A DNA stretch of 64,000 bases, from assembly GCA_000004985.1 (NCBI GenBank), contig GG738845.1. One strand, 5' to 3'. This document shows positions 22,265 through 37,788 of this stretch, piece after piece. The stretch comes from Naegleria gruberi (Eukaryota). Position numbers and translations under genes: made by a program. The notes below the pieces were generated by a model, which saw only the letters and a program-made list of their open reading frames with translations, did not search any database and was not told the origin of the DNA. Position 1 is the stretch's first letter; the number at the start of each line of letters is the position of its first letter.

Positions 22265-23656
22265 ATGAAGTTGCTTCTTGCTTACTTAATTATTTTTCTA
22301 GCAGTTGTTAGTAGAGTTATTGCTTCATCAGGTTGTATTCTCAACAGAGATGGTAACTGTGGGATGACATCAAATGCCGCTGGGGAATTGCTTCTATCTG
22401 TTGATCCAAAACAACAATTTAACACTTTTATTAAATCATCATCTGTGGGAAATAATGGGGAAGTTATCTGCAGTACCCCTAATAGTTTCATTTCCAATCC
22501 GTTATGTAAGGAAAGATGGTTTAGAAAAGCACAACACGATAAACAATTTGCCTCCAATTCCCTAAAACTGAGATGTAATATTGATGTTGTTAGGGGCGAT
22601 TGTCAAATTGGAAATTTGCATTTTCCTCCAGAAAATCAATATAAGTTCTATCATAATGATAATCAAGAAACTCATATCTGTTCATCAATCCAAGGCTACT
22701 ATTCAAATCAACTTTGTAAAGAAAAATGGTTTAGAAAATTAACATTATCCCAGCACTCACTTCTTCCTACTAGTGAAACAAGCATTCCATCCTCAATTGT
22801 TTCTCATGAGGTCAATAACATTATTGCTATCAGTTCAACTTCTCAAACCCCATCTGATGTAATTGATTTAGCGGCTTCAACTACGAACAATGTTGAACTC
22901 ACCAATGAACCTCATTTTAATACTGATCTCACTCACGACTATGATATAGTTACAGAGTTGGCAGAGGCTTTTGAGAACAATGATGAAGATGATGAGTTTG
23001 ATGAATTGGAAATTGATGACTCAGACGAAACAGATGTTGATGAAGGAACTGAACTTGTTGAGGAATTACAAAGTGAGGATTCAAACGAAACAGATATTTC
23101 AGAGGAAGAGATTCAAGAAAATGCTAATGACAACACTGGAGATGATTTTAATAATGAAGAAGAAATTGACAACAAAGAAACTTATATTGAAGAGGAAGCA
23201 GAATCCGTATTTGAAATTGATGAAGAGGACAATGTTGTCCACAATGCTGCCGATAAGCCAATCCCTTCTAATGAAATTACTAATTCTTATACCAAGGAAA
23301 TTGAAAAAACACTAAAAGAAATAATTCCCTACATCAAGAACAAACCAAAAATTGTAAATTCTGTACCATATATTCAATCCGCTACAAACGTTTCTGGCTC
23401 AATTGGTAAGGTAAACATCAAAACAGTAATTAACACTGGAAATATTAAAAATAATAGACATCACCACAAAAGGATTTCCAAAAAAAACCAAAGAAAGCTG
23501 CCACGTGTGGGACGCGAGAGAAATGAAGTGAATCAAATTACTAAAGCTGTGAAAGAAATTGAAGAAAATTTGAAATCAAGAAAATATATTGAATCCAGAA
23601 AAGAAGAATTGAAGAGGAGATTTAAAGAATTCCTTCTTAATTCACTCAGAGTTTAA
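22265..23656 (+). CDS. Secreted protein with signal peptide, two Cys-containing repeats, a long acidic tract and a basic C-terminus
   Basis: N-terminus MKLLLAYLIIFLAVVSRVIASSG (signal peptide). Duplicated motif NPLCKERWFRKAQHDKQF / NQLCKEKWFRKLTLSQ. A D/E-rich segment (~aa 230-310), then a K/R/H-rich tail. Single exon. Confidence 0.55.
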   Translation: MKLLLAYLIIFLAVVSRVIASSGCILNRDGNCGMTSNAAGELLLSVDPKQQFNTFIKSSSVGNNGEVICSTPNSFISNPLCKERWFRKAQHDKQFASNSLKLRCNIDVVRGDCQIGNLHFPPENQYKFYHNDNQETHICSSIQGYYSNQLCKEKWFRKLTLSQHSLLPTSETSIPSSIVSHEVNNIIAISSTSQTPSDVIDLAASTTNNVELTNEPHFNTDLTHDYDIVTELAEAFENNDEDDEFDELEIDDSDETDVDEGTELVEELQSEDSNETDISEEEIQENANDNTGDDFNNEEEIDNKETYIEEEAESVFEIDEEDNVVHNAADKPIPSNEITNSYTKEIEKTLKEIIPYIKNKPKIVNSVPYIQSATNVSGSIGKVNIKTVINTGNIKNNRHHHKRISKKNQRKLPRVGRERNEVNQITKAVKEIEENLKSRKYIESRKEELKRRFKEFLLNSLRV

Positions 23657-23700
23657 TAATATTTATTAAGAATAACTGTCACTCTAATTGAATAAATTCT

Positions 23701-24528
23701 TTATTTGGTAATCAAGTAAGGAGTATCTTTTGGAAGGTAGGTAATATTTTTTGCATTTGATAGTGTACTTGCAATTTCCTTACTAGCTTCAATTTTTCTC
23801 AATTCAATTAAACCAGAACCTGATTTGGTCATTGCATTAGATATCATTTGAGCAGCTATGGCTTCTCCTTCAGCCAAAATAATAGCTGCCTCCTTTTCGT
23901 ATTTTGATTTTTCAACAATAAAAGCTTGTCTTTCAGCTTCTTGCTCTGCTACTTGTTTCATTTCAACAGCTCTTGTAAATTCCTTACTAAAACTCAAGTC
24001 AGTAATTGAAACATCAACCAGATCAATATGGAATTTTTGTAATGCTCTTTCTCTGACCATTTTTTGTATTTCCTTTGAAATTTGTTCTCTTCTCTGTATA
24101 ATTTCTTCAGCCTTGTATCTAGCAATAACAGCCTTCATGACTTCATTTCCGACAGATGGTAAAATACGTTCATCATAATCTCCACCAAGATCTTTATAAA
24201 TAACTGGGAGTTTTTCGACAATAGGACGATGTAAAACTCTCAAAGTAATATTTACAGTTTGTAAATCTTTTGTTCCAGTCTTGGTTGTGATTTCTCTTGG
24301 ACGAACACGTACATCAAAAAAGATTGGTTTTTGGATGAACGGAATTTTAAAGTGGGTTCCTTCCCCAGCAACATAATCATCACGAATACCACCATTTACA
24401 TAGTCCATAAGAATAGCTCTCTCTCCTCCATCCACTGTGTACAAACAAGATAATCCCAATCCTAAAACTGCTGTTGAAGCAAAGGTAGCATATGTCATGC
24501 CTTTCAAAAGTTTGTCCAAAGCTTGCAT
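23701..24528 (-). CDS. PHB1: Prohibitin (PHB1-like, SPFH/band-7 family)
   Basis: 275-aa single-exon ORF. ...GTKDLQTVNITLRVLHRP...LPSVGNEVMKAVIARYKAEEIIQRRE...AVEMKQVAEQEAERQAF... aligns along the whole length with prohibitins. The short N-terminus fits PHB1 rather than PHB2. Confidence 0.9.
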   Translation of the reverse strand: MQALDKLLKGMTYATFASTAVLGLGLSCLYTVDGGERAILMDYVNGGIRDDYVAGEGTHFKIPFIQKPIFFDVRVRPREITTKTGTKDLQTVNITLRVLHRPIVEKLPVIYKDLGGDYDERILPSVGNEVMKAVIARYKAEEIIQRREQISKEIQKMVRERALQKFHIDLVDVSITDLSFSKEFTRAVEMKQVAEQEAERQAFIVEKSKYEKEAAIILAEGEAIAAQMISNAMTKSGSGLIELRKIEASKEIASTLSNAKNITYLPKDTPYLITK

Positions 24529-24599
24529 TTTCCGAGAATATTTTTTTAGAAAATTTTGATTGAATTTTCAATCAATAAATTATTTAATAAACCAATTGT

Positions 24600-25560
24600 T
24601 TATTGCAAATGAAATGGCAAGGTAATTGATTTTCCTTTGTAATTTTCTAAATTTTCTCCAGCAAAAGACACAAGAGGAGAAATTTCACACAATTCCTTCT
24701 TGCAATCTCCAATAATGTTTGCTCCTGCTCTTTCAAGGTACTTGGTGTGGAGCACGGATACATCCTTTCTACAGGTCTCTGGTGAATCACTATTGTTTTG
24801 ATTAGGAGCGTTTTTGAGAGGGGAAAATTCAGATTCTCTTTCTACTTGGAAAATTGTAATAGAGTTGGCAAATTCAACAATGTCAAAATTGAACAATTCA
24901 AGCTTTACACCTGCTTGTTTCTTCTTTTCTCCTGAATTGATATCAATAGATTCGATATCCTTCTTTGCAATGTGATAGAGTTTGTGTGTATTTAAAATTT
25001 GAGCACATTTTTCTAAAAAGTCCAAAGTATAGAAAAAGTTAACAATATTTCCAGCATTGAATGAAAGTTGTCCAGTTGTTTGATCAACACTTTCAGCCAT
25101 TTCCTTTGTAATTTCACTGTATTCCACAACATGGTATTTTCCATTTCTCAAAGCAAAAACGCCAACTTTTTCATGAGGCTCTCTTTTTGGAACAACCTTA
25201 GTTCCAAAATCTACACAATTCTTTACGCAATGTCCAACAAATTTTGGATCTCCAACCTTAACAAGTATGTTATCGACACAATATGAATGAATATATTTGA
25301 TTCCTCTCTCCTTCATATGATCTAACATTCCATATTTTGCCAAAGCCTGGTACACTCCTCCATTACCATTTGGTGCAGTAGCTATCAAATTTTTTTCTTG
25401 CAACATTAATTTTCCGTCCATAGAAAAGCATGGAAGAGTACCTTGTTGGAAGAATAAAATTTGGTCTTGACANNNNNNNNNNNNNNNNNNNNNNNNNNNN
25501 NNNNNNNNNNNNNNNNNNNNNNAGTTCAAAGAGCTCCTTTATGGATGTTTGTGATGACAT
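24600..25560 (-). CDS. UAP1: UDP-N-acetylglucosamine pyrophosphorylase (UAP1/QRI1), interrupted by an assembly gap
   Basis: ...NGNGGVYQALAKYGMLDHMKERGIKYIHSYCVDNILVKVGDPKFVGHCVKNCVDFGTKVV... is typical UAP1. The ORF runs into the N-run at 25478-25522. Only 12 codons (MSSQTSIKELFE) lie beyond the gap. The expected ~150 N-terminal residues are missing, so the gap is larger than drawn. Confidence 0.8.
25478..25522. other. Assembly gap (45 N)
   Basis: Run of n characters. It breaks the UAP1 coding region. Confidence 0.99.
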
Positions 25561-26108
25561 TTTTTTTTAAATATTAAATAATCCCACAAAATTCTTCCAG
25601 ATGGCTTGTGGGCAGTGTTTGATTTTGCTCCCAATTCAAATGGCTGCATGATGTCGTTTATTATTGGAAATTTAATTTGGAGAATGATCATCAAACAACA
25701 AATCCCAACACAATCAACTGCCAATAAGAAATCAACTTCAATTTCTATCTACTCCGTAAATAATATGACAACCTCTTTTATTAAATTACTAGAATATTCT
25801 GACAATAAGAAAAATACACTCAACCTTATTATGTCAAATTCAAAACTCATCCAATATCTAAACTCTAGTTCCAAACACAAGTACTTTGCTTCTCCAATAC
25901 TCTTTACTCCATCACAAACTACTTTAATTACCAAACATGCATCCCTTGTTAAAATCAAAACTCACACCAGTTTTGCTATTCATTAAAGGAAATACAAGAT
26001 CCACCAAGGAAAATTAAGATATTCAAAATTACTCATTATTTATACTCTACTTAAACTTTAATTATAAAACAGGCCACAAAAGACCATTAGACATTGAAAA
26101 AGCAATAC

Positions 26109-26965
26109 TAGACTTCCGGAAAAGTCAAAAAGAAATAAAAAGGCGCCTTTTTAAAAAAGTGGTTTGAAAAATGTTTGAGCAATTTTTGAAATTTGTTTGA
26201 GCATAATTCAAGAAATGTTTAAACCTTTCCTGCACATTTATTGAAGCTTTCTTTTTCCTGATGTCAACATTTTCTTTACTGCATTTGCTGAAGTTGAAAG
26301 GTTCCCTAATCTTGCTGATTCTATTGTTGATGGAACGGAAGATGTTGAGGAAGTGGAAGAAAATCTTAATGAAACACCATATTCTGAATTAAGCATAAAA
26401 CAGGAACAAGAAAAAAGTGTGAAACAATTAAAAATCCAGAAGAGGAAGATCTGATTTGAACATCACTCCACCCAGAAAGAGAAAAAACCTGAACCTTATC
26501 AAAAAGAAAACAATCATCAAATCATCATGCCAAGAAAAGTTGAGGAGCTCAAAAGACCAGAGCTTTCAAAAGATTTCGTGATTGATGTAAAAAAATCCAT
26601 CAAAACTACAGTGACCCGAGATGGTGACATTCAAAAACCTTGGATCTCTTAAGGAATTGGTGGATTTTTTGGAAAAGGATATAGTTAAGAAAGAGAGTGA
26701 GTTCAGAAGTTTGAGGGCCCTTGGGGTTTTTTCAGCAAATACTTGAACGTTTTGAGAGTTGAGAAGTAATTAATCATTCTTGAGGAATTGTTTGAAAACA
26801 GTTTGAAAGTTGCTCAAGATTTTCTTGAACAAACTTTGGATGTGTTTCAAGTAGTTTTTAGGTAAAAAAGGCACCTTTTAGGCACCTTTTAGGCGCCTTT
26901 TTGCAAATTAGCGTGAAAGTACCTTAAAAAAGTCGACTTTTAGCAAAACTTTTTCTGGAAGTCTA
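26109..26965. mobile_element. Non-autonomous DNA transposon / MITE-like element, family A, full-length copy (~857 bp)
   Basis: Terminal inverted repeat TAGACTTCCGGAAAAGT (26109-26125) versus ...ACTTTTTCTGGAAGTCTA (26948-26965), 17/18 matching. Subterminal GGCGCC-centred palindromes (AAAAAGGCGCCTTTTT at ~26148 and tandem AGGCACCTTTT repeats at ~26868-26900). A second, truncated copy lies at 31170-31423. Confidence 0.6.
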
Positions 26966-27335
26966 CTAAAGAAAAAAATGAAAAAAAGAAAGTCTATTAA
27001 AAAAGAGTTGTACTAAGAAATCAAAAAAAGAAAATCTGAGAATATTGGTTAACTATTAATTGATCTTGAGTTAATGATGATGATTAAATATAAATGTGTA
27101 CATTATTTGTCAAACCTGTTCCAGAAAACCTTAAGGCTTCATTCTTTTGAATTGTTTATACTTTATCAACTTGACAGAAAGTACAAAAAACATCAAAAAA
27201 AAAACATTTCTAAAACCATATAAGCTTTTTATTGTGATGCAATAAATTGTCTGTTGCTTTTTACGTCATTGTATTCTTAAAGTTGACCAATTATCTTCAA
27301 GCAGCTCAAGATTTCTCCTCAAACTGACTCAGACA

Positions 27336-28185
27336 GAGGGGATGGAAAATCCTCGATCCAAATCCCACGCGGATCAGTCGGATCCAAGATTCCAATAAAA
27401 ACGTGAATCCTGGATCCGGATTATCCGATAGATTCAACACAAGGATTTTTTAAAAATTACTTAATTATTGTTGTTTACACTTGCTTTAACCGAAAAACAA
27501 TCTAGTTCTTCGTAATAAATTGTGAAATTTCTTGTAATGTCTGATAATTGGTAAGTTTCTTAGTTAACAGCAAAAGTTCTAAGCAATACTCGATACTCTG
27601 AAAGCTTATCGCTGCGGCTTAGTGCATACAATTTACCTTGTTTCAATATTATCAGTTCATCATTTAAATTAATATCTTCTGATTCATTAAATTGAGAAAG
27701 TATTTGGGAAGATAATTAACTTGTTTCTGAGCAAAGTTGTAATTGTTTTTGTTTGTCAAATCTTCTAGCTCTTACCAACATCACACGAGTACTTATTTGC
27801 AAAAGTAAGATGTCATCTTTTTCCATAAACATAGATACAAGTCTTGATTTTAATTCTTTAGCATCTTTACCAATTCCTGAGAGTGGATTTTCTAGTAAAT
27901 CATAGCTCTTTGTAGCATTAGATATTTTACAATTTGAGGGGAGAGTAAAGTAATCATCACGAATTGGACAATAGAACTTTTTCTTTTGGGTTGATTGGTT
28001 GTGGTGATGTTTCTCTTTATTTATTAACGTTTGAAATTGTTCCATTAAAAATTGGAAGTGCAATCCTGGATTATCGGTTCCATCTTTTGAAAGATTTTAG
28101 AAAAAGATTCATTGTTTATTAAAAAATAATCCTTCCCATCCTCCTCCAAAACGTGAGATTTGGCTTTAGGATTTTCCATCCCCTC
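27336..28185. mobile_element. Non-autonomous DNA transposon, family B (~850 bp) with ~35-bp imperfect TIRs
   Basis: Left end GAGGGGATGGAAAATCCTCGATCCAAATCCCACG (27336-). Right end ...CGTGAGATTTGGCTTTAGGATTTTCCATCCCCTC (-28185), a reverse complement with the first 18 nt identical. The internal 115-aa ORF (27716-28063, minus) has no transposase features. Confidence 0.6.
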
Positions 28186-28439
28186 CTTCAACACTAATTC
28201 TTCTATTTCTACTAGTACGTTAATTGCAATTACTTATTTTATAATTTTATCAACAACAAAATAAGATGTCGTTTCTGAAATACTAAGTTTATTCTATTAC
28301 ACGCGAGTAGATTAATTCGCAAGAATAATAATAATGATTGAGGATATCATTAATCAACTTTTGTATAATATATAAACTCTAATACTTCAAAGATTTATAT
28401 CCTTTAAAGCAGGTTCCAAGGTTGATTCACTCGTTGGTA

Positions 28440-28610
28440 TCTCAATCCTTGAGCTTTTAATTCATTTGTCTTATTTTATTATTTTATTATTTTGTGAGTT
28501 TAAAAACACTAATACTTCTAATAGTTGCAACTACTAGCCCAAAAAACCATCTAATCAATTCAAAAAACCTTAAAAACCATAAAAACAAAAAATACTGAAA
28601 TATCTGAAAA
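28440..28610. repeat. Dispersed repeat family C, copy 1
   Basis: ~80-85% identical to 30070-30346 (shared segments ...TCTCAATCTTTGAGCTTTTAAT...TTATTTTATTATTTTGTG...TAATAGTTGCAACTACTAGCCCA...CCATCTAATCAATTCAAAAAACC...). Confidence 0.6.
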
Positions 28611-29204
28611 CTTGATAACTAATTCTCTATAGCTTCAATCAATCTTTACATAAGCAACATCAATCACACCACCAAAATCGCAGTAAGCGTTAAGCTTATG
28701 TAGGTTTATTGTAAAAACAATAAAATAAGTGTCAACTAACAAATTTCTCATTTGCAAAAATGGTACATTTCAATAGAAATTTCGGATTTAGTAAGTCAAT
28801 AATTTTTTAATAATTTATTATTTTATTGGATTTCATTTGATCATATCTAATTTGGTGAGGTCAAATGACATTTTCATTTGGATAGCTTTTGTAGTATTGT
28901 TTGGTAGTGGATATCACTATCAAGAAAAGATAGGATCATTTGTTGAGCTGGTTTTTTAATCAAATATGTGAAAATTCTAACAATTTTATATATGATTTGT
29001 GTGTTTATTTAATTTTTTAAATTTAAAGCACTGCTAATGCCAAGGCGATTAGTGATTGATTTTGAAAGCAATTAATAGATCATCTGAATTTTCTATTGAC
29101 AGAAACGTATTTTAGTAGTTCAGTTCTACCTAGTTGTAATAAACACCGGAAATTTATTTATGTTTTTAACATTAAAAGCTGAAAGTAGTAAAATGATGAT
29201 ATTT

Positions 29205-29236
29205 GAAATATATATATATACACATATATATATATT
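29205..29236. repeat. (AT)n/(ATAC) microsatellite
   Basis: atatatatatacacatatatatatat. Confidence 0.8.
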
Positions 29237-30069
29237 TTAATTGATGTTTGACAAACATATCCACCACATGTATGAAAATTCGTATTTTTCATTGAAATAC
29301 TAATAAATTTCTATTTTAATTACTGCCAATTCAAACAGGCAACAAACGACACACATTATCACATTATCAGACATTGTAATAGCAAATGCTAAACCTTTTG
29401 TTGTTTATAATATGTGAAATCTGTAGACAGAAAAAAATGAAACACAGTTTTTAAGAAGAAATCATCGAAAAACTCAAGTAAAATGAAGAATAGAAAATCA
29501 CTTTTAAGGGGTAAAAAATTTAATCTGAATAGATAAATGAATTTGCGAGGAATTATGATGAAAAGGATGTAGTGAGAATGGGATTTGATAAAGAGATAAG
29601 TAAAAAACATGATGAGGAGTATGATGAAGAATAAAAGAGAAATGATTTTTCTAACATAGATAAATATAATTTTTGTTCACATATATTCACCCAATAATTT
29701 ATCAAAACAATAAAATACCCCAAATCAATTCTCATATCACAACAAAATAAATTGTAAAAATATACAAAAATTATATTCAAACTCGAATTTAGATCTACAG
29801 TATTTCAGAAACGACACTTTATGTTGTTGATAAACCTATAAATTTGGATTTTTAGTTTTTTACAATTTTATATGATTTGTGTTTATTTAAAATTTACGGT
29901 TAGAGAGGAATTTTGGATATTATAGTACACTCGTTGTTGAGGTGTTCTTTTTGTCATCATCAGTAAGTGTAATCAGTATGGAGATTCTAGTTGGATATTA
30001 TTGACAGCAATTACAAAAAGTACTTGTTATTATTATAAGACAACAATGGATTAGTGGGATAGTTAAGTG

Positions 30070-30346
30070 GTGTCTCAATCTTTGAACTTTTAATCTATTT
30101 GTCTTAATTTATTATTTTATTATTTTGTGGATTTAAAAACAGAGATTTATCCAAAAAGCCAAGCCAAAAATTCAACCAGATTGTCCTTTTTAAAAAGCCA
30201 TATCCAAAAAAAGCGGTTTGGGATAGATATTGGATATTAATATACTCTCCTTCTAATAGTTGCAACTACTAGCCCATTAAACCATCTAATCAATTCAAAA
30301 AACCATAAATTAGAAATCCAATAAAAACACAAAATAATAAAATAAT
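30070..30346. repeat. Dispersed repeat family C, copy 2 (MITE-like, with a ~95-bp internal insertion relative to copy 1)
   Basis: Homologous to 28440-28610. Ends TTATTTTATTATTTTGTGG (~30108) and CACAAAATAATAAAATAATG (~30327-30346) are inverse complements, i.e. TIR-like. Confidence 0.55.
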
Positions 30347-31130
30347 GTTATTATTATTTGTTTGAGAATTAAAAATTTCAATTTATACGAGACAACAATT
30401 TGTTCTTAAGAGAATAAAATTTGAAAACCATATTCCACACAATATTGTTTTATTGTTGGAAAGTTTGATACTATTTTTCTAAATAATAACAAACTCAGTA
30501 ATTAGTGGAGATGTTATTAATTAACTAATTGATAAAATTAATCGGTGAAAGATAATAGAACCTAATATTTTGACCATATATTCTGGAATAATCGTTCAAA
30601 TACAGCAATACACAACCAACGTTTACCTTTTCAATATCTCTCCTTTACGAATTAGACAAAAGCATGCCTGTACTAGTTATAAACAATCATAAATAGTTTT
30701 CAAAGAAAACCAAGTTGGTGATGTTTAATTCGAAAGTGTATTGAAGAAAGTGTTTACATGAATTACTTAGAGAATTGAAATAATTAAAAAAGGAAAAACA
30801 AACCAAGCCTTATACAAATATTTAAAATTAATTCATCATGCATTTTATATGTATGATGATGTGGATTTAAAAACGAAACAATCTACCAACACTTTACAAA
30901 TAGTAAAATCAAAACTAAAAAATCATTAGAAATGTTGGAGGAGTGGGATGATATTTTTGAGGATATCAATAATACAAATCTTAGTATTACCATTTTATTT
31001 TCATTGTCTATATGTTTTGCCTACACTTTTGTATTATCGAATTATTTAGAGAAAAAGAATTGTAATTTTCAAAATATATATATTAACGATTGTATTTACA
31101 ATGGTAATACAAAGTAAATGGATTTTGTTT

Positions 31131-31423
31131 GGCGGAGGAGTCGTGTGGGATTTGGATAACAGATTTTCCATCGCATCATGCTAAGAAAAGTTGAGGCCTA
31201 AAAGACCAGAGCTTTCAAAAGATTTCTTGATTGATGTAAAAAATCCATCAAAACTAGGATGGTGACATTTAAAAACCTTGGATCTCTAAGGAATTGGTGG
31301 AAAAGCATATAGTTAAGAAAGAGAGTGAGTTTAGAGGTTTGAAGGCACTTAGGGTTTTTTCAGAAGTAATTAATTATACTTGTAAAAAAGGCGCCTTTTA
31401 GTAAAACTTTTTACGGAAGTCTA
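31131..31423. mobile_element. Compound TE fragment: solo family-B-like TIR (31131-31172) abutting a 5'-truncated, internally deleted family-A copy (31170-31423)
   Basis: 31131-31172 (GGCGGAGGAGTCGTGTGGGATTTGGATAACAGATTTTCCATC) is the reverse complement of the family-B TIR consensus (GATGGAAAATC...ATCCAAATCCCAC...). 31170-31423 aligns to 26524-26965 of copy A with two internal deletions. It ends with the same ...AAAAAGGCGCCTTTTAG...CTTTTTACGGAAGTCTA terminus. Confidence 0.55.
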
Positions 31424-31772
31424 AAATAACCATTCAAACTTTAAACAACAAACACCAAAATTCAAAAACACCTCTTTAATACTTTTGACAATAATATTAT
31501 TAAATGTATTACAAAGGTTTTTGAATTCACAAGCCCATTAAATTTCAAAATCAAGTTGTAAATGATGGTGAATGGTATTTCTGATATTTCGCACACTTGG
31601 TCATTTTTATCGTTGAGTTATTATTTATCTTTCCACCTTTCTATTTCGGCATTCCCTTCCAATTAGACTCTAGTTTTGTCCAATCATCACGTCCAATAAT
31701 AAATAATAAAATAATATTTTTATTTTAAAAAAAAAATCTCCAACAATATCCATTCATCACCAACCACAAAAG

Positions 31773-35166: not shown

Positions 35167-37788
35167 CTATACTAATCCTTTACTAAATTCTAAATAGAGC
35201 TGAACACAATCGTCTCTCCTTGTGTAGTCCATACATGAGTGTACAATTTGGTAAAAATCTCTCAAAAGAGAAACAAGAGGAATTCCATTCTTATCCTCTT
35301 GGTCCGTGCATTGAGAAATAACTCTTCTAAGGATAGAAAAAAGCTCTTTGAGATGAGAATGGTCAATTGTTTGTGTACAATTGAAAAGAAGGATTATTAA
35401 TTGCTTTACGAGCTTTTTTTGATTAGATATTTCACTCCTCAAGATTAATTGCTCAATTTGTCTGAGTGTAAAGTCTATCAAGATGTTGTCGTGTAGGTAG
35501 TTTAGAATTAAATGAAAGGTACTACAAAATAATTGTTGGAGTTGATTCGACGACTTTTGCTTATCCTCTTGTATGACAAGTTTTAAATAATAAGGTAGAA
35601 TAAGGTTGCTAATCTTGTATCCATCCATAAAGAAGGTAATGAATAGTTGGTGAGCTTGTTGAACTATTTGCTTATTATTGTGAATGAGACAATTAAACAT
35701 GAAGGGAACAAGCTGATTTTTAAACAAATTTTCATTAGAAAATTGCTTACTCTGAAGTATTAGACTAAAGAATCCCAAATAAAAATAAACTGTTGATAGA
35801 TACACCATATTATTTTGATAACTCTTTAAAAAGAGTGAATCTCCCAAAGTCTTGATTGTTGTATCAGAGAATATAAATTGTTCAATAGTTTGCGGATGAT
35901 ATTGTATTATTTTCTTTAAAAATATGGTGTACATTGAAACTGAATCCAGATCTTTCATAAATTCAGTGCTTGCAAGTATTTTTAATATTAAAATAATATC
36001 CTCGTGAGTAATATTCTTATTCTTCTCCATTAATGAGAGATTTTGCCGTATATTGTTGAATAATTTTGTGTTGTCTGTGTATATCTTTAAAATAAATATC
36101 AACAGTGAACTAGATATATTTTTTAAATGAAATTTCAATTCTTCCATTGATACTAGATCTTCAATAATTCTATCCTTCTTTGGTTTGCTAAAAGATTTTG
36201 AAAATGATTGACTTAGCATACTGACCATATCATACATTGTTTGAATATATTTGGAATGAGAGATGGAGATAATCATTACAAGGTTATTAATTAATAGATA
36301 AATATAAGAGTAGAGACTTGACTTTTGATATTCTGAAAATAATGCCTTCAAATCTGTAATTGATAAATCATGTTTTAAAGCAGACACTAGAGTGGGAATC
36401 ATATAAAGCCTCTCCTTTAGTGAATGGTTTAGTAGTCTGTCAATGAAAATATCGAAATGTTTGAATAAACTTAAATGAGAAGCAACTTGAACTGCAATAA
36501 GTGAATAAACTGTTGACAATGTATTTTCGACATTGTTAATTATTTGAGATTGTACAATTTTCCAAATTTCTTCCAATAGATTTTTAGAAAGGGAGGAATT
36601 AATTAATTTGTTATGCTGAAAATAGGCCACTAGGGCAACTAGTTTAGTAAAACCATCCTGTGAAAAGTTGACAAGGAAAGTTCCAATCGTTTCTGTATTG
36701 TTTAATTGTTCGGATAGTTGAGAAATAAATATATATATTGTAGAGCAAAATTTAAGAATAAAATCAATTAATCTTATGGAGACGTGGTTGTGAACATTGG
36801 TTGAAATAATCTTTGCAACATCCTTATTAGCTATTATGTGTTGTTCCATTTTAAGAATTGATGTTAATAATTTTTGCTTCTTTTCATCAGTTAATTTTCC
36901 ATATATAAAAAGTGTACCAGTTGATTTGATAAGATCTTCAAAAAGGTCCCTATTTCCAGAAACAATCTTCTCTCCTGTAATTTGATTATCATATCTAAAA
37001 GATATAATATCTTTAATTTTATAAATTAAATAAGTACAAAATACACTAAATATAGTATCTATATCATTTTGATTTTGCAAAAATTTACAGCAGTGAGAAA
37101 GAATATGTAAACAAATTCCAACTAATTTTGTAATACTGTGATAATTAGTTAAAAATTTAATTGATGTCTTGTAGAGATAATTAGAGTAAAATGAAATGTC
37201 ATATTCTGTTAAATATTTGTGAAATTCATGAGTTTCATATTTTAAAAATAAAATTAGAATTTTCATATGATAAAGTAACTTGCTCATAGTGAGTGGGTTA
37301 GAGTTGTATGCTGTATTAAACTTTTCTACATATTTAACTTGATCCACACAATATTTAAAAAAACTTGCAAGAATATTGAGTATAACTTGTTTCTTTTCTG
37401 TATTATTCGATTCCAATTTACTATTATCAAGCAATCTTTGAATATTTCCAAATATATATAATAAATATTTCATTTCTCCATTTTTTTGGGAGTCAGTAAG
37501 TTGATGGTTAGTTTGTGCATCTGTCCAATTAATGGGACAATTTTCCATTAAATAATTCATACAAACAATACATTGTTGAGAAAGTTCTTCCAACAAGGAC
37601 GATTGAATAGTAATTCCTATTGATCCTGATGAATCGGAAGATATTGATTTTTTCATCACATCACCAACCAATCCTACAATGTAATTCTGAGAATTTGTTC
37701 TACCACCATTACTGGACGAAGAATGATTGGAAGATTGAGACATATTTTTTAAAATTGTGTACAACAATTTACAAAATACATACCACAA
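35167..37788 (-). CDS. Hypothetical 873-aa protein, alpha-helical repeat (HEAT/ARM-like) composition
   Basis: Single long minus-strand ORF. No catalytic motif. Leucine-rich helical repeats throughout. Start probably MSQSSNHSSSSNGG (37742). Confidence 0.5.
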   Translation of the reverse strand: MWYVFCKLLYTILKNMSQSSNHSSSSNGGRTNSQNYIVGLVGDVMKKSISSDSSGSIGITIQSSLLEELSQQCIVCMNYLMENCPINWTDAQTNHQLTDSQKNGEMKYLLYIFGNIQRLLDNSKLESNNTEKKQVILNILASFFKYCVDQVKYVEKFNTAYNSNPLTMSKLLYHMKILILFLKYETHEFHKYLTEYDISFYSNYLYKTSIKFLTNYHSITKLVGICLHILSHCCKFLQNQNDIDTIFSVFCTYLIYKIKDIISFRYDNQITGEKIVSGNRDLFEDLIKSTGTLFIYGKLTDEKKQKLLTSILKMEQHIIANKDVAKIISTNVHNHVSIRLIDFILKFCSTIYIFISQLSEQLNNTETIGTFLVNFSQDGFTKLVALVAYFQHNKLINSSLSKNLLEEIWKIVQSQIINNVENTLSTVYSLIAVQVASHLSLFKHFDIFIDRLLNHSLKERLYMIPTLVSALKHDLSITDLKALFSEYQKSSLYSYIYLLINNLVMIISISHSKYIQTMYDMVSMLSQSFSKSFSKPKKDRIIEDLVSMEELKFHLKNISSSLLIFILKIYTDNTKLFNNIRQNLSLMEKNKNITHEDIILILKILASTEFMKDLDSVSMYTIFLKKIIQYHPQTIEQFIFSDTTIKTLGDSLFLKSYQNNMVYLSTVYFYLGFFSLILQSKQFSNENLFKNQLVPFMFNCLIHNNKQIVQQAHQLFITFFMDGYKISNLILPYYLKLVIQEDKQKSSNQLQQLFCSTFHLILNYLHDNILIDFTLRQIEQLILRSEISNQKKLVKQLIILLFNCTQTIDHSHLKELFSILRRVISQCTDQEDKNGIPLVSLLRDFYQIVHSCMDYTRRDDCVQLYLEFSKGLV

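What the first reader, a model, noticed from the sequence alone, without database searches (positions are those of the whole stretch)
25990..31700. AT-rich transposon graveyard between UAP1 and the dynamin gene, with at least three MITE-like families
This ~5.7 kb stretch has no convincing gene but contains structured repeats: family A (26109-26965; TIR TAGACTTCCGGAAAAGT), family B (27336-28185; ~35-bp TIR GAGGGGATGGAAAATCC...), and family C (28440-28610 and 30070-30346; TIR-like TTATTTTATTATTTTGTG / CACAAAATAATAAAATAA). There are also shorter duplicated segments (~28940-29030 vs ~29820-29900) and an AT microsatellite. Everywhere else the window is gene-dense (~2 kb per gene), so this is a localised accessory island.
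Basis: seen in the sequence. Interest (0 to 1): 0.5.

Follow-up and report, generated by a model that had tools for sequence, protein, structure and literature searches.

The report
Decayed transposon cluster in Naegleria spacer
This gene-free, AT-rich 6-kb stretch of the Naegleria gruberi genome is a small pile-up of old, broken "cut-and-paste" transposon copies next to an assembly gap, which is an ordinary feature of eukaryotic genomes.

Summary
The window is Naegleria gruberi: its prohibitin is 100% identical to XP_002683453.1. The described repeats exist at about the stated coordinates and exceed chance. A1 (26109-26965) has a 15-17-nt terminal inverted repeat (TIR), palindromic subterminal motifs and a perfect 5-bp flanking repeat, TACTA. 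B (27336-28185) has a 34-nt TIR (30/34). C1 and C2 (28435-28602, 30068-30344) are 85-89% alike.

- a truncated second A copy (31174-31423);
- a solo B-like TIR abutting it (31142-31177);
- a 45-nt inverted pair (28238-28284 / 29799-29842) that may bound a fourth, 1.6-kb element;
- a decayed reading frame inside B related to a small protein of unknown function;
- that UAP1 is cut by the 50-N assembly gap, with its N-terminal 181 residues absent from the window.

No Pfam domain, tRNA or Rfam RNA lies in the island. It holds every dispersed repeat found in the 64 kb.

The best reading is a cluster of dead non-autonomous DNA transposons. "MITE" is not shown: A and B are about 850 bp, C's inverted repeat is not terminal, and genome-wide copy number could not be tested. 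Superfamilies remain unassigned. Ordinary; low interest.

The parts
25473..25522 (.). Assembly gap (50 N) inside the UAP1 gene. It forms the true left limit of the island as assembled.
   Evidence: The N run was located. NCBI calls the N. gruberi protein 'partial' at 289 aa (P0006). The N. lovaniensis orthologue is 474 aa, and its first 181 aa match nowhere in the window.
26109..26965 (+). A1, the full-length copy of family A. The TIRs are 26109-26125 and 26949-26965. The core element GACTTCC...GGAAGTC spans 26111-26963 and is flanked by a perfect direct repeat TACTA (26106-26110 and 26964-26968).
   Evidence: TIR hits number 3 against 0.18 expected. No Pfam domain was found.
26138..26151 (.). 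Palindromic subterminal motif AAAAGGCGCCTTTT at the left end of A1. Further copies lie at 26866-26879 (part of a 3 x 11-bp tandem AGGCACCTTTT at 26869-26901), at 26928-26941, and in A2 at 31386-31399.
   Evidence: There are 4 hits within 2 mismatches in 64 kb against 0.51 expected, all in A subtermini.
27336..28185 (.). B, an 850-bp element bounded by 34-nt TIRs (27336-27369 and 28152-28185).
   Evidence: The arms are 88% complementary (I2). The 18-mer GAGGGGATGGAAAATCCT is exact at both ends and occurs nowhere else (0.05 expected). The only candidate TSD is a 5/8 match, CTCAGACA / CTTCAACA (read from the sequence; one search found nothing better).
27464..28096 (-). Decayed reading frame inside B: 211 codons with 2 stops. 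The part 27815-28033 is homologous to a small protein family of unknown function (P0126, P0127).
   Evidence: The open-frame statistic gives p about 0.007 against Markov-1 simulations. An exhaustive HMMER search gave E = 2.2e-5 and 9.7e-5. tblastn gave 38% identity over 86 aa and 43% over 53 aa. No Pfam family matched.
28238..29842 (.). Candidate element D, bounded by inverted arms X1 (28238-28284) and X2 (29799-29842). It encloses C1 and the (AT)14 microsatellite at 29208-29235.
   Evidence: The arms are 87% identical over 47 nt, with BLASTN E about 1e-7 (I4, 5, 60, 72). No convincing TSD was found.
28435..28602 (+). C1, the shorter copy of family C.
   Evidence: It is 89% and 85% identical to C2 in two blocks. 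Its right inverted arm is degenerate.
30068..30344 (+). C2, the longer copy of family C, with 109 extra bases at 30142-30249. It has an internal 25-nt inverted repeat at 30111-30135 / 30322-30346.
   Evidence: (D1, D3, I9). The inverted repeat begins 43 nt inside the repeat unit on the left, and its extension to the ends is not significant.
31142..31177 (-). Solo B-like TIR, 76% identical to the right TIR of B. It abuts the truncation point of A2, with 4 nt (CATC, 31174-31177) shared by both.
   Evidence: (D14, I1), plus direct reading of the sequence.
31174..31423 (+). A2, a second family-A copy that is 5'-truncated and internally deleted. It ends at the same terminal GGAAGTCTA as A1.
   Evidence: It is 84% identical over 213 nt (E = 8e-60) and 88% over the terminal 41 nt (D2/D6/D9/D13, 5).

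Best explanation
The stretch is a cluster of old, inactive, non-autonomous class II (terminal-inverted-repeat, cut-and-paste) transposon copies and fragments. It lies in the spacer upstream of the dynamin gene of Naegleria gruberi.

At least two families are well defined. Family A has one full copy, A1, and one truncated copy, A2. Family B has one 850-bp copy plus a solo TIR. Two further repeats are less certain: C, with two copies, and the X-bounded 1.6-kb unit D.

Inferred mechanism when the elements were alive:
1. A transposase encoded elsewhere bound the TIRs. For A it probably also bound the repeated palindromic subterminal motif AAAAGGCGCCTTTT.
2. It excised the element and re-inserted it, duplicating a short target (TACTA, or TA, for A1).
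3. Insertions piled up here because AT-rich, gene-free spacer tolerates them.
4. Later nested insertions and deletions left truncated pieces. One example is the junction between A2 and the B-like TIR, which shares 4 nt of microhomology.

B's interior is a decayed fragment of a gene for a small protein. It was either captured from the host or is a remnant of the parent element.

Shown: the repeats, TIRs, motif, flanking repeat, truncations, lack of coding capacity, and confinement of the repeats to the island.
Inferred: past mobility, trans-mobilisation, superfamily, and the presence of other copies elsewhere in the genome.
For: - Organism: prohibitin at 23704-24528(-) is 100% identical to N. 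gruberi XP_002683453.1.
- TIRs exceed chance: A has 3 hits against 0.18 expected. B's exact 18-mer occurs twice against 0.05 expected, within a 34-nt, 88% inverted repeat.
- A's subterminal palindrome occurs 4 times against 0.51 expected, only in A ends.
- A2 is homologous to A1 (E = 8e-60), and the homology stops at the same terminal base as the TIR.
- A1 is flanked by a perfect 5-bp direct repeat with symmetric offsets.
- The order A1-C1-C2-A2, all direct, is incompatible with a single tandem or inverted duplication.
- No Pfam domain in six frames, no tRNA, no Rfam RNA.
- All dispersed repeats of the 64 kb lie in this island, which is also the longest ORF-free stretch and has the lowest GC.
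- B's frame is related to P0126 and P0127.
- Literature context: about 5.1% of the N. gruberi genome is repeats (PMC6125883). Only a small fraction is classifiable as known TEs, including DNA transposons (PMC12344493).
Against: - Copy number outside this locus is unknown. Every family was seen only within these 5.7 kb.
- DNA scans of JGI metagenomes, IMG/VR and prokaryote genomes gave only chance matches.
- None of 10 island ORFs is in the protein collection.
- No transposase remnant and no autonomous partner was found, so no superfamily can be assigned.
- TSD evidence is good only for A1. It is marginal for B (5/8) and absent for C and D.
- A's TIR alone (15-17 nt with mismatches) would not be significant among all inverted pairs in AT-rich DNA. 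Its support comes from coinciding with the copy boundaries.
- The region adjoins an assembly gap, so the arrangement may be incomplete.
Confidence: 0.7

Rival explanations
1. Family A copies are long terminal repeats. A1 would be a solo LTR, or A1 and A2 would be the two LTRs of one degenerate 5.3-kb LTR retrotransposon (26109-31423). B, C and D would then be later insertions into it.
For: - A1 and A2 are direct repeats 4.5 kb apart.
- At 857 bp, A is LTR-sized rather than MITE-sized.
- A 5-bp flanking repeat, as seen at A1, is typical of LTR-element integration (established knowledge).
- LTRs often have short terminal inverted repeats (established knowledge).
Against: - The termini are not the canonical TG...CA (sequence).
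- No RT, integrase, gag or protease domain lies anywhere between A1 and A2, even at E<=1.
- There is no matching TSD outside the A1...A2 pair (AATAC versus AAATA, read from the sequence).
- No TGG primer-binding site follows A1.
- The palindromic motif is repeated at both subtermini, which is more typical of transposase binding sites.
Confidence: 0.12
2. The repeats are purely local. They would be products of small segmental, inverted and slippage duplications in a fast-evolving AT-rich spacer, with no transposition. In that case the families are single-locus.
For: - Every repeat pair lies within the same 5.7 kb and none elsewhere in the 64 kb.
- All pairs have similar divergence, 84-89%.
- C's inverted repeat is low-complexity and not terminal.
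- No copy was found in any searchable collection.
Against: - The order A1, C1, C2, A2 with all pairs direct needs several independent events.
- A2's homology ends precisely at the TIR terminus.
- A1 has TIR, subterminal motifs and a perfect flanking repeat.
- B's 34-nt G+C-rich TIR cannot be explained by AT-rich low complexity.
- The searchable collections do not contain the N. gruberi genome, so absence there says little.
Confidence: 0.12
3. The arrangement is partly an assembly artefact. Repeat-induced mis-joins or collapse next to the gap would have produced the truncated copies and the odd junctions.
For: - A 50-N gap lies at 25473-25522, directly at the island's edge.
- UAP1 lacks its conserved N-terminal 181 aa anywhere in the window and is annotated as partial.
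- The published assembly is 1,977 contigs in 784 scaffolds (PMC6125883).
Against: - The repeats are 84-89% identical, too diverged to be collapsed or confused by an assembler.
- The sequence from 25523 to the dynamin gene is contiguous, with no further N.
- An independent metagenome contig matches the adjoining genes at 99.8%.
Confidence: 0.05

Closest known systems
Non-autonomous TIR DNA transposons and MITEs (for example Stowaway/Tourist-type elements, or the small TIR elements of Dictyostelium)
   Same: Like these, A and B have terminal inverted repeats and no transposase, and A also has subterminal repeated motifs. A1 has a short flanking direct repeat. Copies are truncated and possibly nested (C1 lies within candidate D), they sit in AT-rich non-coding DNA next to genes, and there is more than one copy of a family.
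   Different: A and B are about 850 bp, above the usual MITE size. High copy number is not shown. B carries a decayed coding fragment. C's inverted repeat is not at the ends of the repeat unit. No autonomous partner or superfamily was identified.
Tc1/mariner-derived elements (TA target duplication)
   Same: A1's core GACTTCC...GGAAGTC is flanked by TA on both sides. A2's surviving end is also followed by TA.
   Different: The flanking repeat is equally well read as 5 bp (TACTA). TA is common in 29% GC DNA. The TIR sequence was not compared with any mariner-family consensus, and no DDE_3 or HTH_Tnp remnant was found.
hAT elements and gene-fragment-carrying (Pack-type) non-autonomous elements
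   Same: B has longish TIRs. Its left end reads CAGAG when the two bases outside the conserved TIR are included. Its 8-bp flanks match 5/8. It carries a fragment of a protein-coding gene between its TIRs. The resemblance of the TIR start to hAT termini is my recollection, not a test.
   Different: The right end does not keep CAG. The 8-bp TSD is only 5/8, with chance about 0.04 by my own rough estimate. No hAT dimerisation domain was found. The parent gene in N. gruberi was not identified, so capture versus remnant of the parent element is open.
Solo LTRs of LTR retrotransposons
   Same: A shares the size (857 bp), a 5-bp flanking repeat, short terminal inverted repeats, and direct orientation of the two A copies.
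   Different: There are no TG...CA termini, no pol or gag remnant between the copies, and no shared TSD around the pair. A also has palindromic subterminal repeats.

Membership tests
MITE | Terminal inverted repeats at the very ends of the repeat unit | tested here: met
   Met for A and B. Not met for C, whose inverted repeat starts 43 nt inside the C1/C2 homology; its extension scores z about 1.8 against shuffles.
MITE | Target-site duplication flanking the element | tested here: inconclusive
   A1 has a perfect 5-bp TACTA, or TA. B has only 5/8. C1, C2 and D have nothing convincing. Only one full copy per family is available.
MITE | Small size (usually under about 600-800 bp) and no coding capacity | tested here: not met
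   A is 857 bp and B is 850 bp. B holds a 211-codon frame with 2 stops that is homologous to P0126 and P0127. C (168 and 277 bp) meets the size criterion. No Pfam domain was found anywhere.
MITE | Many dispersed copies in the genome | not testable with these tools
   The N. gruberi genome is not held as searchable DNA. Within the 64 kb all copies lie in the island. Scans of other collections gave only chance hits.
Tc1/mariner superfamily | TA target-site duplication | tested here: inconclusive
   TA flanks the GACTTCC...GGAAGTC core at A1 and at the A2 right end. The data fit a 5-bp TSD equally well, and TA is frequent in AT-rich DNA.
Tc1/mariner superfamily | DDE/D transposase, or a partner element sharing the TIRs | tested here: not met
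   No transposase domain appears in any frame of the island. A partner elsewhere in the genome could not be searched for.
hAT superfamily | 8-bp target-site duplication | tested here: inconclusive
   B's flanks CTCAGACA and CTTCAACA match 5/8. One search found no better offset.
hAT superfamily | hAT transposase or its C-terminal dimerisation domain | tested here: not met
   No Pfam hit for B's frame at E<=10 or for six-frame translations. The relatives P0126 and P0127 also have no Pfam domain.
LTR retrotransposon (A as LTR) | TG...CA termini, reverse transcriptase or integrase between the two LTRs, and a shared TSD around the pair | tested here: not met
   The termini are TAGAC...GTCTA. There is no RVT, rve or gag hit between 26966 and 31173. 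The flanks AATAC and AAATA differ.
Gene-fragment-carrying (Pack-type) transposon | TIRs enclosing a fragment of a cellular gene whose intact parent exists elsewhere in the same genome | tested here: inconclusive
   A fragment homologous to P0126 and P0127 lies between B's TIRs. P0127 sits on a 32% GC contig, L063, without B-like TIRs, from the metagenome that also holds 99.8% N. gruberi DNA. The parent gene in N. gruberi itself was not identified.

The most novel reading that the evidence does not exclude
The island is not just junk. As the lowest-GC, gene-free, repeat-bearing stretch of a gene-dense region in a TE-poor genome, it could be, or lie at the edge of, a centromere or another chromosomal landmark of N. 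gruberi, whose centromeres are, as far as I recall, uncharacterised. Its adjacency to an unclosed assembly gap would fit a larger repeat-rich domain.

A milder novel reading is that B is the first described gene-fragment-carrying TIR element in Heterolobosea, and that A to D are undescribed families.
Probability: 0.03. Interest if true: 0.6.

Novelty: new member of a known kind. Interest (0 to 1): 0.15.

Why it matters
It matters little beyond annotation, in four ways.
- It gives concrete termini for at least two unclassified N. gruberi repeat families. These could seed a genome-wide search for copies and for the autonomous transposons that moved them. That is useful because most N. gruberi repeats remain unclassified (PMC12344493).
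- It flags that the only UAP1 gene visible for this species is truncated by an assembly gap next to repeats, which is an annotation problem rather than biology.
- The gene fragment inside B points to a small conserved protein family with no known domain.
- The island would become interesting only if it turned out to mark a chromosomal landmark such as a centromere. Nothing here supports that directly.

Tried and rejected
Searches for coding or RNA content:
- Pfam on six-frame translations of 25990-31700 found nothing.
- tRNA and Rfam searches found nothing.
- A bacterial promoter and terminator scan was uninformative for a eukaryote and no different from shuffles.

Attempts to reach the same locus in other assemblies or species:
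- Exact look-ups of the 463-aa ORF and of dynamin exon 1 were not on record.
- The prohibitin look-up returned only a 1.8-kb metagenome contig. The N. gruberi scaffold itself was not among the contigs returned.
- N. lovaniensis and a fowleri-like Logan contig share no synteny here, so no empty-site comparison was possible.

Attempts to find other copies:
- The word-index protein search with B's 115-aa ORF gave no hit.
- DNA pattern scans of IMG/VR found nothing.
- The A core pattern was absent from JGI metagenomes. The B TIR pattern gave 58 hits there, all only 24-31 nt and therefore chance.
- In prokaryote genomes the A core pattern gave no hit. The B 18-mer gave 23 single hits, about the number I estimate from database size, so chance.
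- Exact look-up of 10 island ORFs found none in the collection.
- P0126 has no relatives in viral contigs, and a PDB search with P0126 gave nothing meaningful.

Other rejected ideas:
- Extending C's inverted repeat to the ends of the unit was not better than shuffles.
- 'MSSQTSIKELFE' just right of the gap looked like UAP1. However, tblastn with the N. lovaniensis and Willaertia orthologues found no N-terminal UAP1 sequence anywhere.
- Literature searches found no description of these families. The N. gruberi genome paper is not held in the library.

Full report
**Source organism**

The single-exon prohibitin gene at 23704-24528(-) is identical to Naegleria gruberi XP_002683453.1 / EFC50709.1, on a 1.56-Mb scaffold. 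The window has 33% GC and closely packed genes with short introns. Published figures for this genome are about 5.1% repeats (PMC6125883, Table 1) and 0.28% classifiable TEs (bioRxiv 10.64898/2026.06.24.734286). [quoted passage not shown]

**Check of the observation**

- Family A: the 17-mer TAGACTTCCGGAAAAGT occurs three times within 3 mismatches in 64 kb, against 0.18 expected. The hits are at 26109(+), 26949(-) and 31407(-).
- Family B: 27336-27369 and 28152-28185 are 34 nt and 30/34 complementary. The outer 18 nt are identical in both arms and found nowhere else (0.05 expected).
- Family C: 28435-28602 and 30068-30344 align at 85-89%, with a 109-nt indel. The quoted 18-mers are exact reverse complements in C2.
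- The short duplicate (about 28951-29017 versus 29823-29895) is weak but real.
- (AT)14 lies at 29208-29235.
- No Pfam domain is found in any frame at E<=1, no tRNA and no Rfam family.
- The island is the longest stretch of the window without a 150-codon open frame; the next longest is 2.05 kb. Its core has 25.5% GC.
- A whole-window self-BLASTN finds dispersed repeats only here.

1. A second family-A copy, A2, lies at 31174-31423. It is 84% identical to A1 over 213 nt (E = 8e-60) and 88% over the last 41 nt. It is 5'-truncated and internally deleted. It ends at exactly the same GGAAGTCTA terminus as A1.
2. A solo B-like TIR lies at 31142-31177, 76% identical to B's right TIR (D14). It abuts A2's truncation point, and the two share 4 nt (CATC).
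3. An inverted pair X lies at 28238-28284 and 29799-29842 (87%, E about 1e-7). It may bound a fourth, 1.6-kb element, D, that contains C1 and the microsatellite.
4. A palindromic motif AAAAGGCGCCTTTT occurs in both subtermini of A1, including a 3 x 11-bp tandem, and in A2. That is 4 hits against 0.51 expected, all in A ends.
5. A1's core GACTTCC...GGAAGTC (26111-26963) is flanked by a perfect direct repeat TACTA with symmetric offsets. This can also be read as a TA duplication.

**The left border**

The UAP1 ORF (24600-25529, minus strand) runs into a 50-N gap at 25473-25522. NCBI annotates the N. gruberi protein as 'partial' at 289 aa (P0006). The N. lovaniensis orthologue is 83% identical and 474 aa long. 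Its first 181 residues, including highly conserved motifs, match nowhere in the 64 kb.

No other protein labelled N. gruberi appears among the 120 best UAP1 hits listed. The missing half is therefore most likely hidden in an under-sized gap, not truly lost. The island thus begins at an unresolved gap, and its real extent to the left is unknown.

**Element B**

On the minus strand, 27464-28096 is one frame of 211 codons with only two stops (p about 0.007 against Markov-1 simulations).

- The word-index protein search found nothing.
- The exhaustive HMMER search of 1.84 billion representatives found two proteins, P0126 (E = 2.2e-5) and P0127 (E = 9.7e-5).
- The three sequences share a conserved core: EKH, K.YCP.R..., F.L, ISNA, Y..L.
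- None has a Pfam domain.
- P0127 lies on L063, a 3.5-kb, 32% GC contig from the same metagenome (ERZ929261) that contains DNA 99.8% identical to this window. It sits next to an F-box-like ORF, and no B-like TIRs are present.

B therefore encloses a decayed gene fragment. It was either captured from the host or is a remnant of a longer parent element.

**Interpretation**

A and B have the anatomy of non-autonomous cut-and-paste transposons. The supporting points are:

- TIRs well above chance for both families;
- subterminal repeats, in A;
- a flanking duplication, at A1;
- a second copy whose homology stops at the TIR terminus, in A;
- a solo TIR, for B.

The order A1, C1, C2, A2, with both pairs direct, cannot arise from one duplication. 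All pairs are 84-89% identical and no transposase remnant survives, so the elements are old and dead.

C is weaker. Its inverted repeat is low-complexity and lies 43 nt inside the repeat unit on the left. Extending it to the ends is not better than shuffles, and it has no TSD. D rests on its 45-nt arms alone.

**Rivals**

- A as an LTR fits its size, the 5-bp flanking repeat and the direct orientation of the two copies. It is opposed by the lack of TG...CA termini, the lack of pol or gag between the copies, and the lack of a TSD around the pair.
- Purely local duplication cannot be excluded, because copy number elsewhere is untested.
- An assembly artefact is unlikely to create repeats that are 84-89% diverged.

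**Limits**

No tool here holds the N. gruberi genome as searchable DNA. The decisive copy-number test, classification against Repbase or Dfam, and empty-site comparisons were therefore impossible. Scans of JGI metagenomes, IMG/VR and prokaryote genomes returned only chance matches. N. lovaniensis shows no synteny at this locus.

**Verdict**

The 'transposon graveyard' reading is largely right. 'Three MITE-like families between UAP1 and dynamin' is only partly right. This is an ordinary cluster of unclassified, decayed DNA-transposon remnants beside an assembly gap, and it is of low interest.

Noticed in passing
window 24600-25529 (-) and gap 25473-25522: The UAP1 gene is cut by the 50-N assembly gap. 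Only its C-terminal 289 aa are present, and NCBI annotates the protein as 'partial'. The conserved N-terminal 181 aa, judged from the 474-aa N. lovaniensis orthologue, match nowhere in the 64 kb. The gap is therefore larger than 50 bp, or the scaffold is mis-joined there.
   Followed up: yes
L001/L002 (ERZ929261 / ERR1078381, PRJEB11402) versus window 23235-25077: A public metagenome contains a 1.8-kb contig 99.7-99.8% identical to this N. gruberi locus. The same sample yields L063, which encodes P0127, the relative of element B's internal frame. No paper mentioning the project was found.
   Followed up: partly
window 22265-23656 (+): A 463-aa ORF has a signal-peptide-like start and a long acidic region. 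It has no homologue at E<=1e-10 among 5.8 billion protein clusters, and its exact product is not on record. It is an apparent orphan gene.
   Followed up: partly
window 26987-27006: About 30 bp downstream of A1's right end there is a second, partial copy of the terminus plus its flank. GAAAGTCTATTAAAAAAGAG matches GGAAGTCTACTAAAGAAAAA at 15/20. It may be the stub of another A-family end or a slippage duplication.
   Followed up: no
L004 (N. lovaniensis PYSW02000032.1) and L003 (Logan SRR29240419): Gene order around prohibitin is not conserved between N. gruberi and N. lovaniensis or a fowleri-like Naegleria. There is no UAP1 or dynamin nearby, which prevented an orthologous empty-site comparison.
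   Followed up: partly
window 35167-37788 (-): The second lowest-GC stretch of the window (26-28% at 36-38 kb) is not a repeat island. It lies inside an 873-aa open reading frame, so low GC alone does not mark non-coding DNA here.
   Followed up: no
P0126 contig (JGI metagenome 3300059473, 3463 bp; no DNA retrievable): P0126, the closest relative of B's internal frame, is followed 45 bp downstream on the same strand by a 788-aa ORF with no Pfam hit on record. Whether this pair is a mobile element or ordinary genes is unknown.
   Followed up: no
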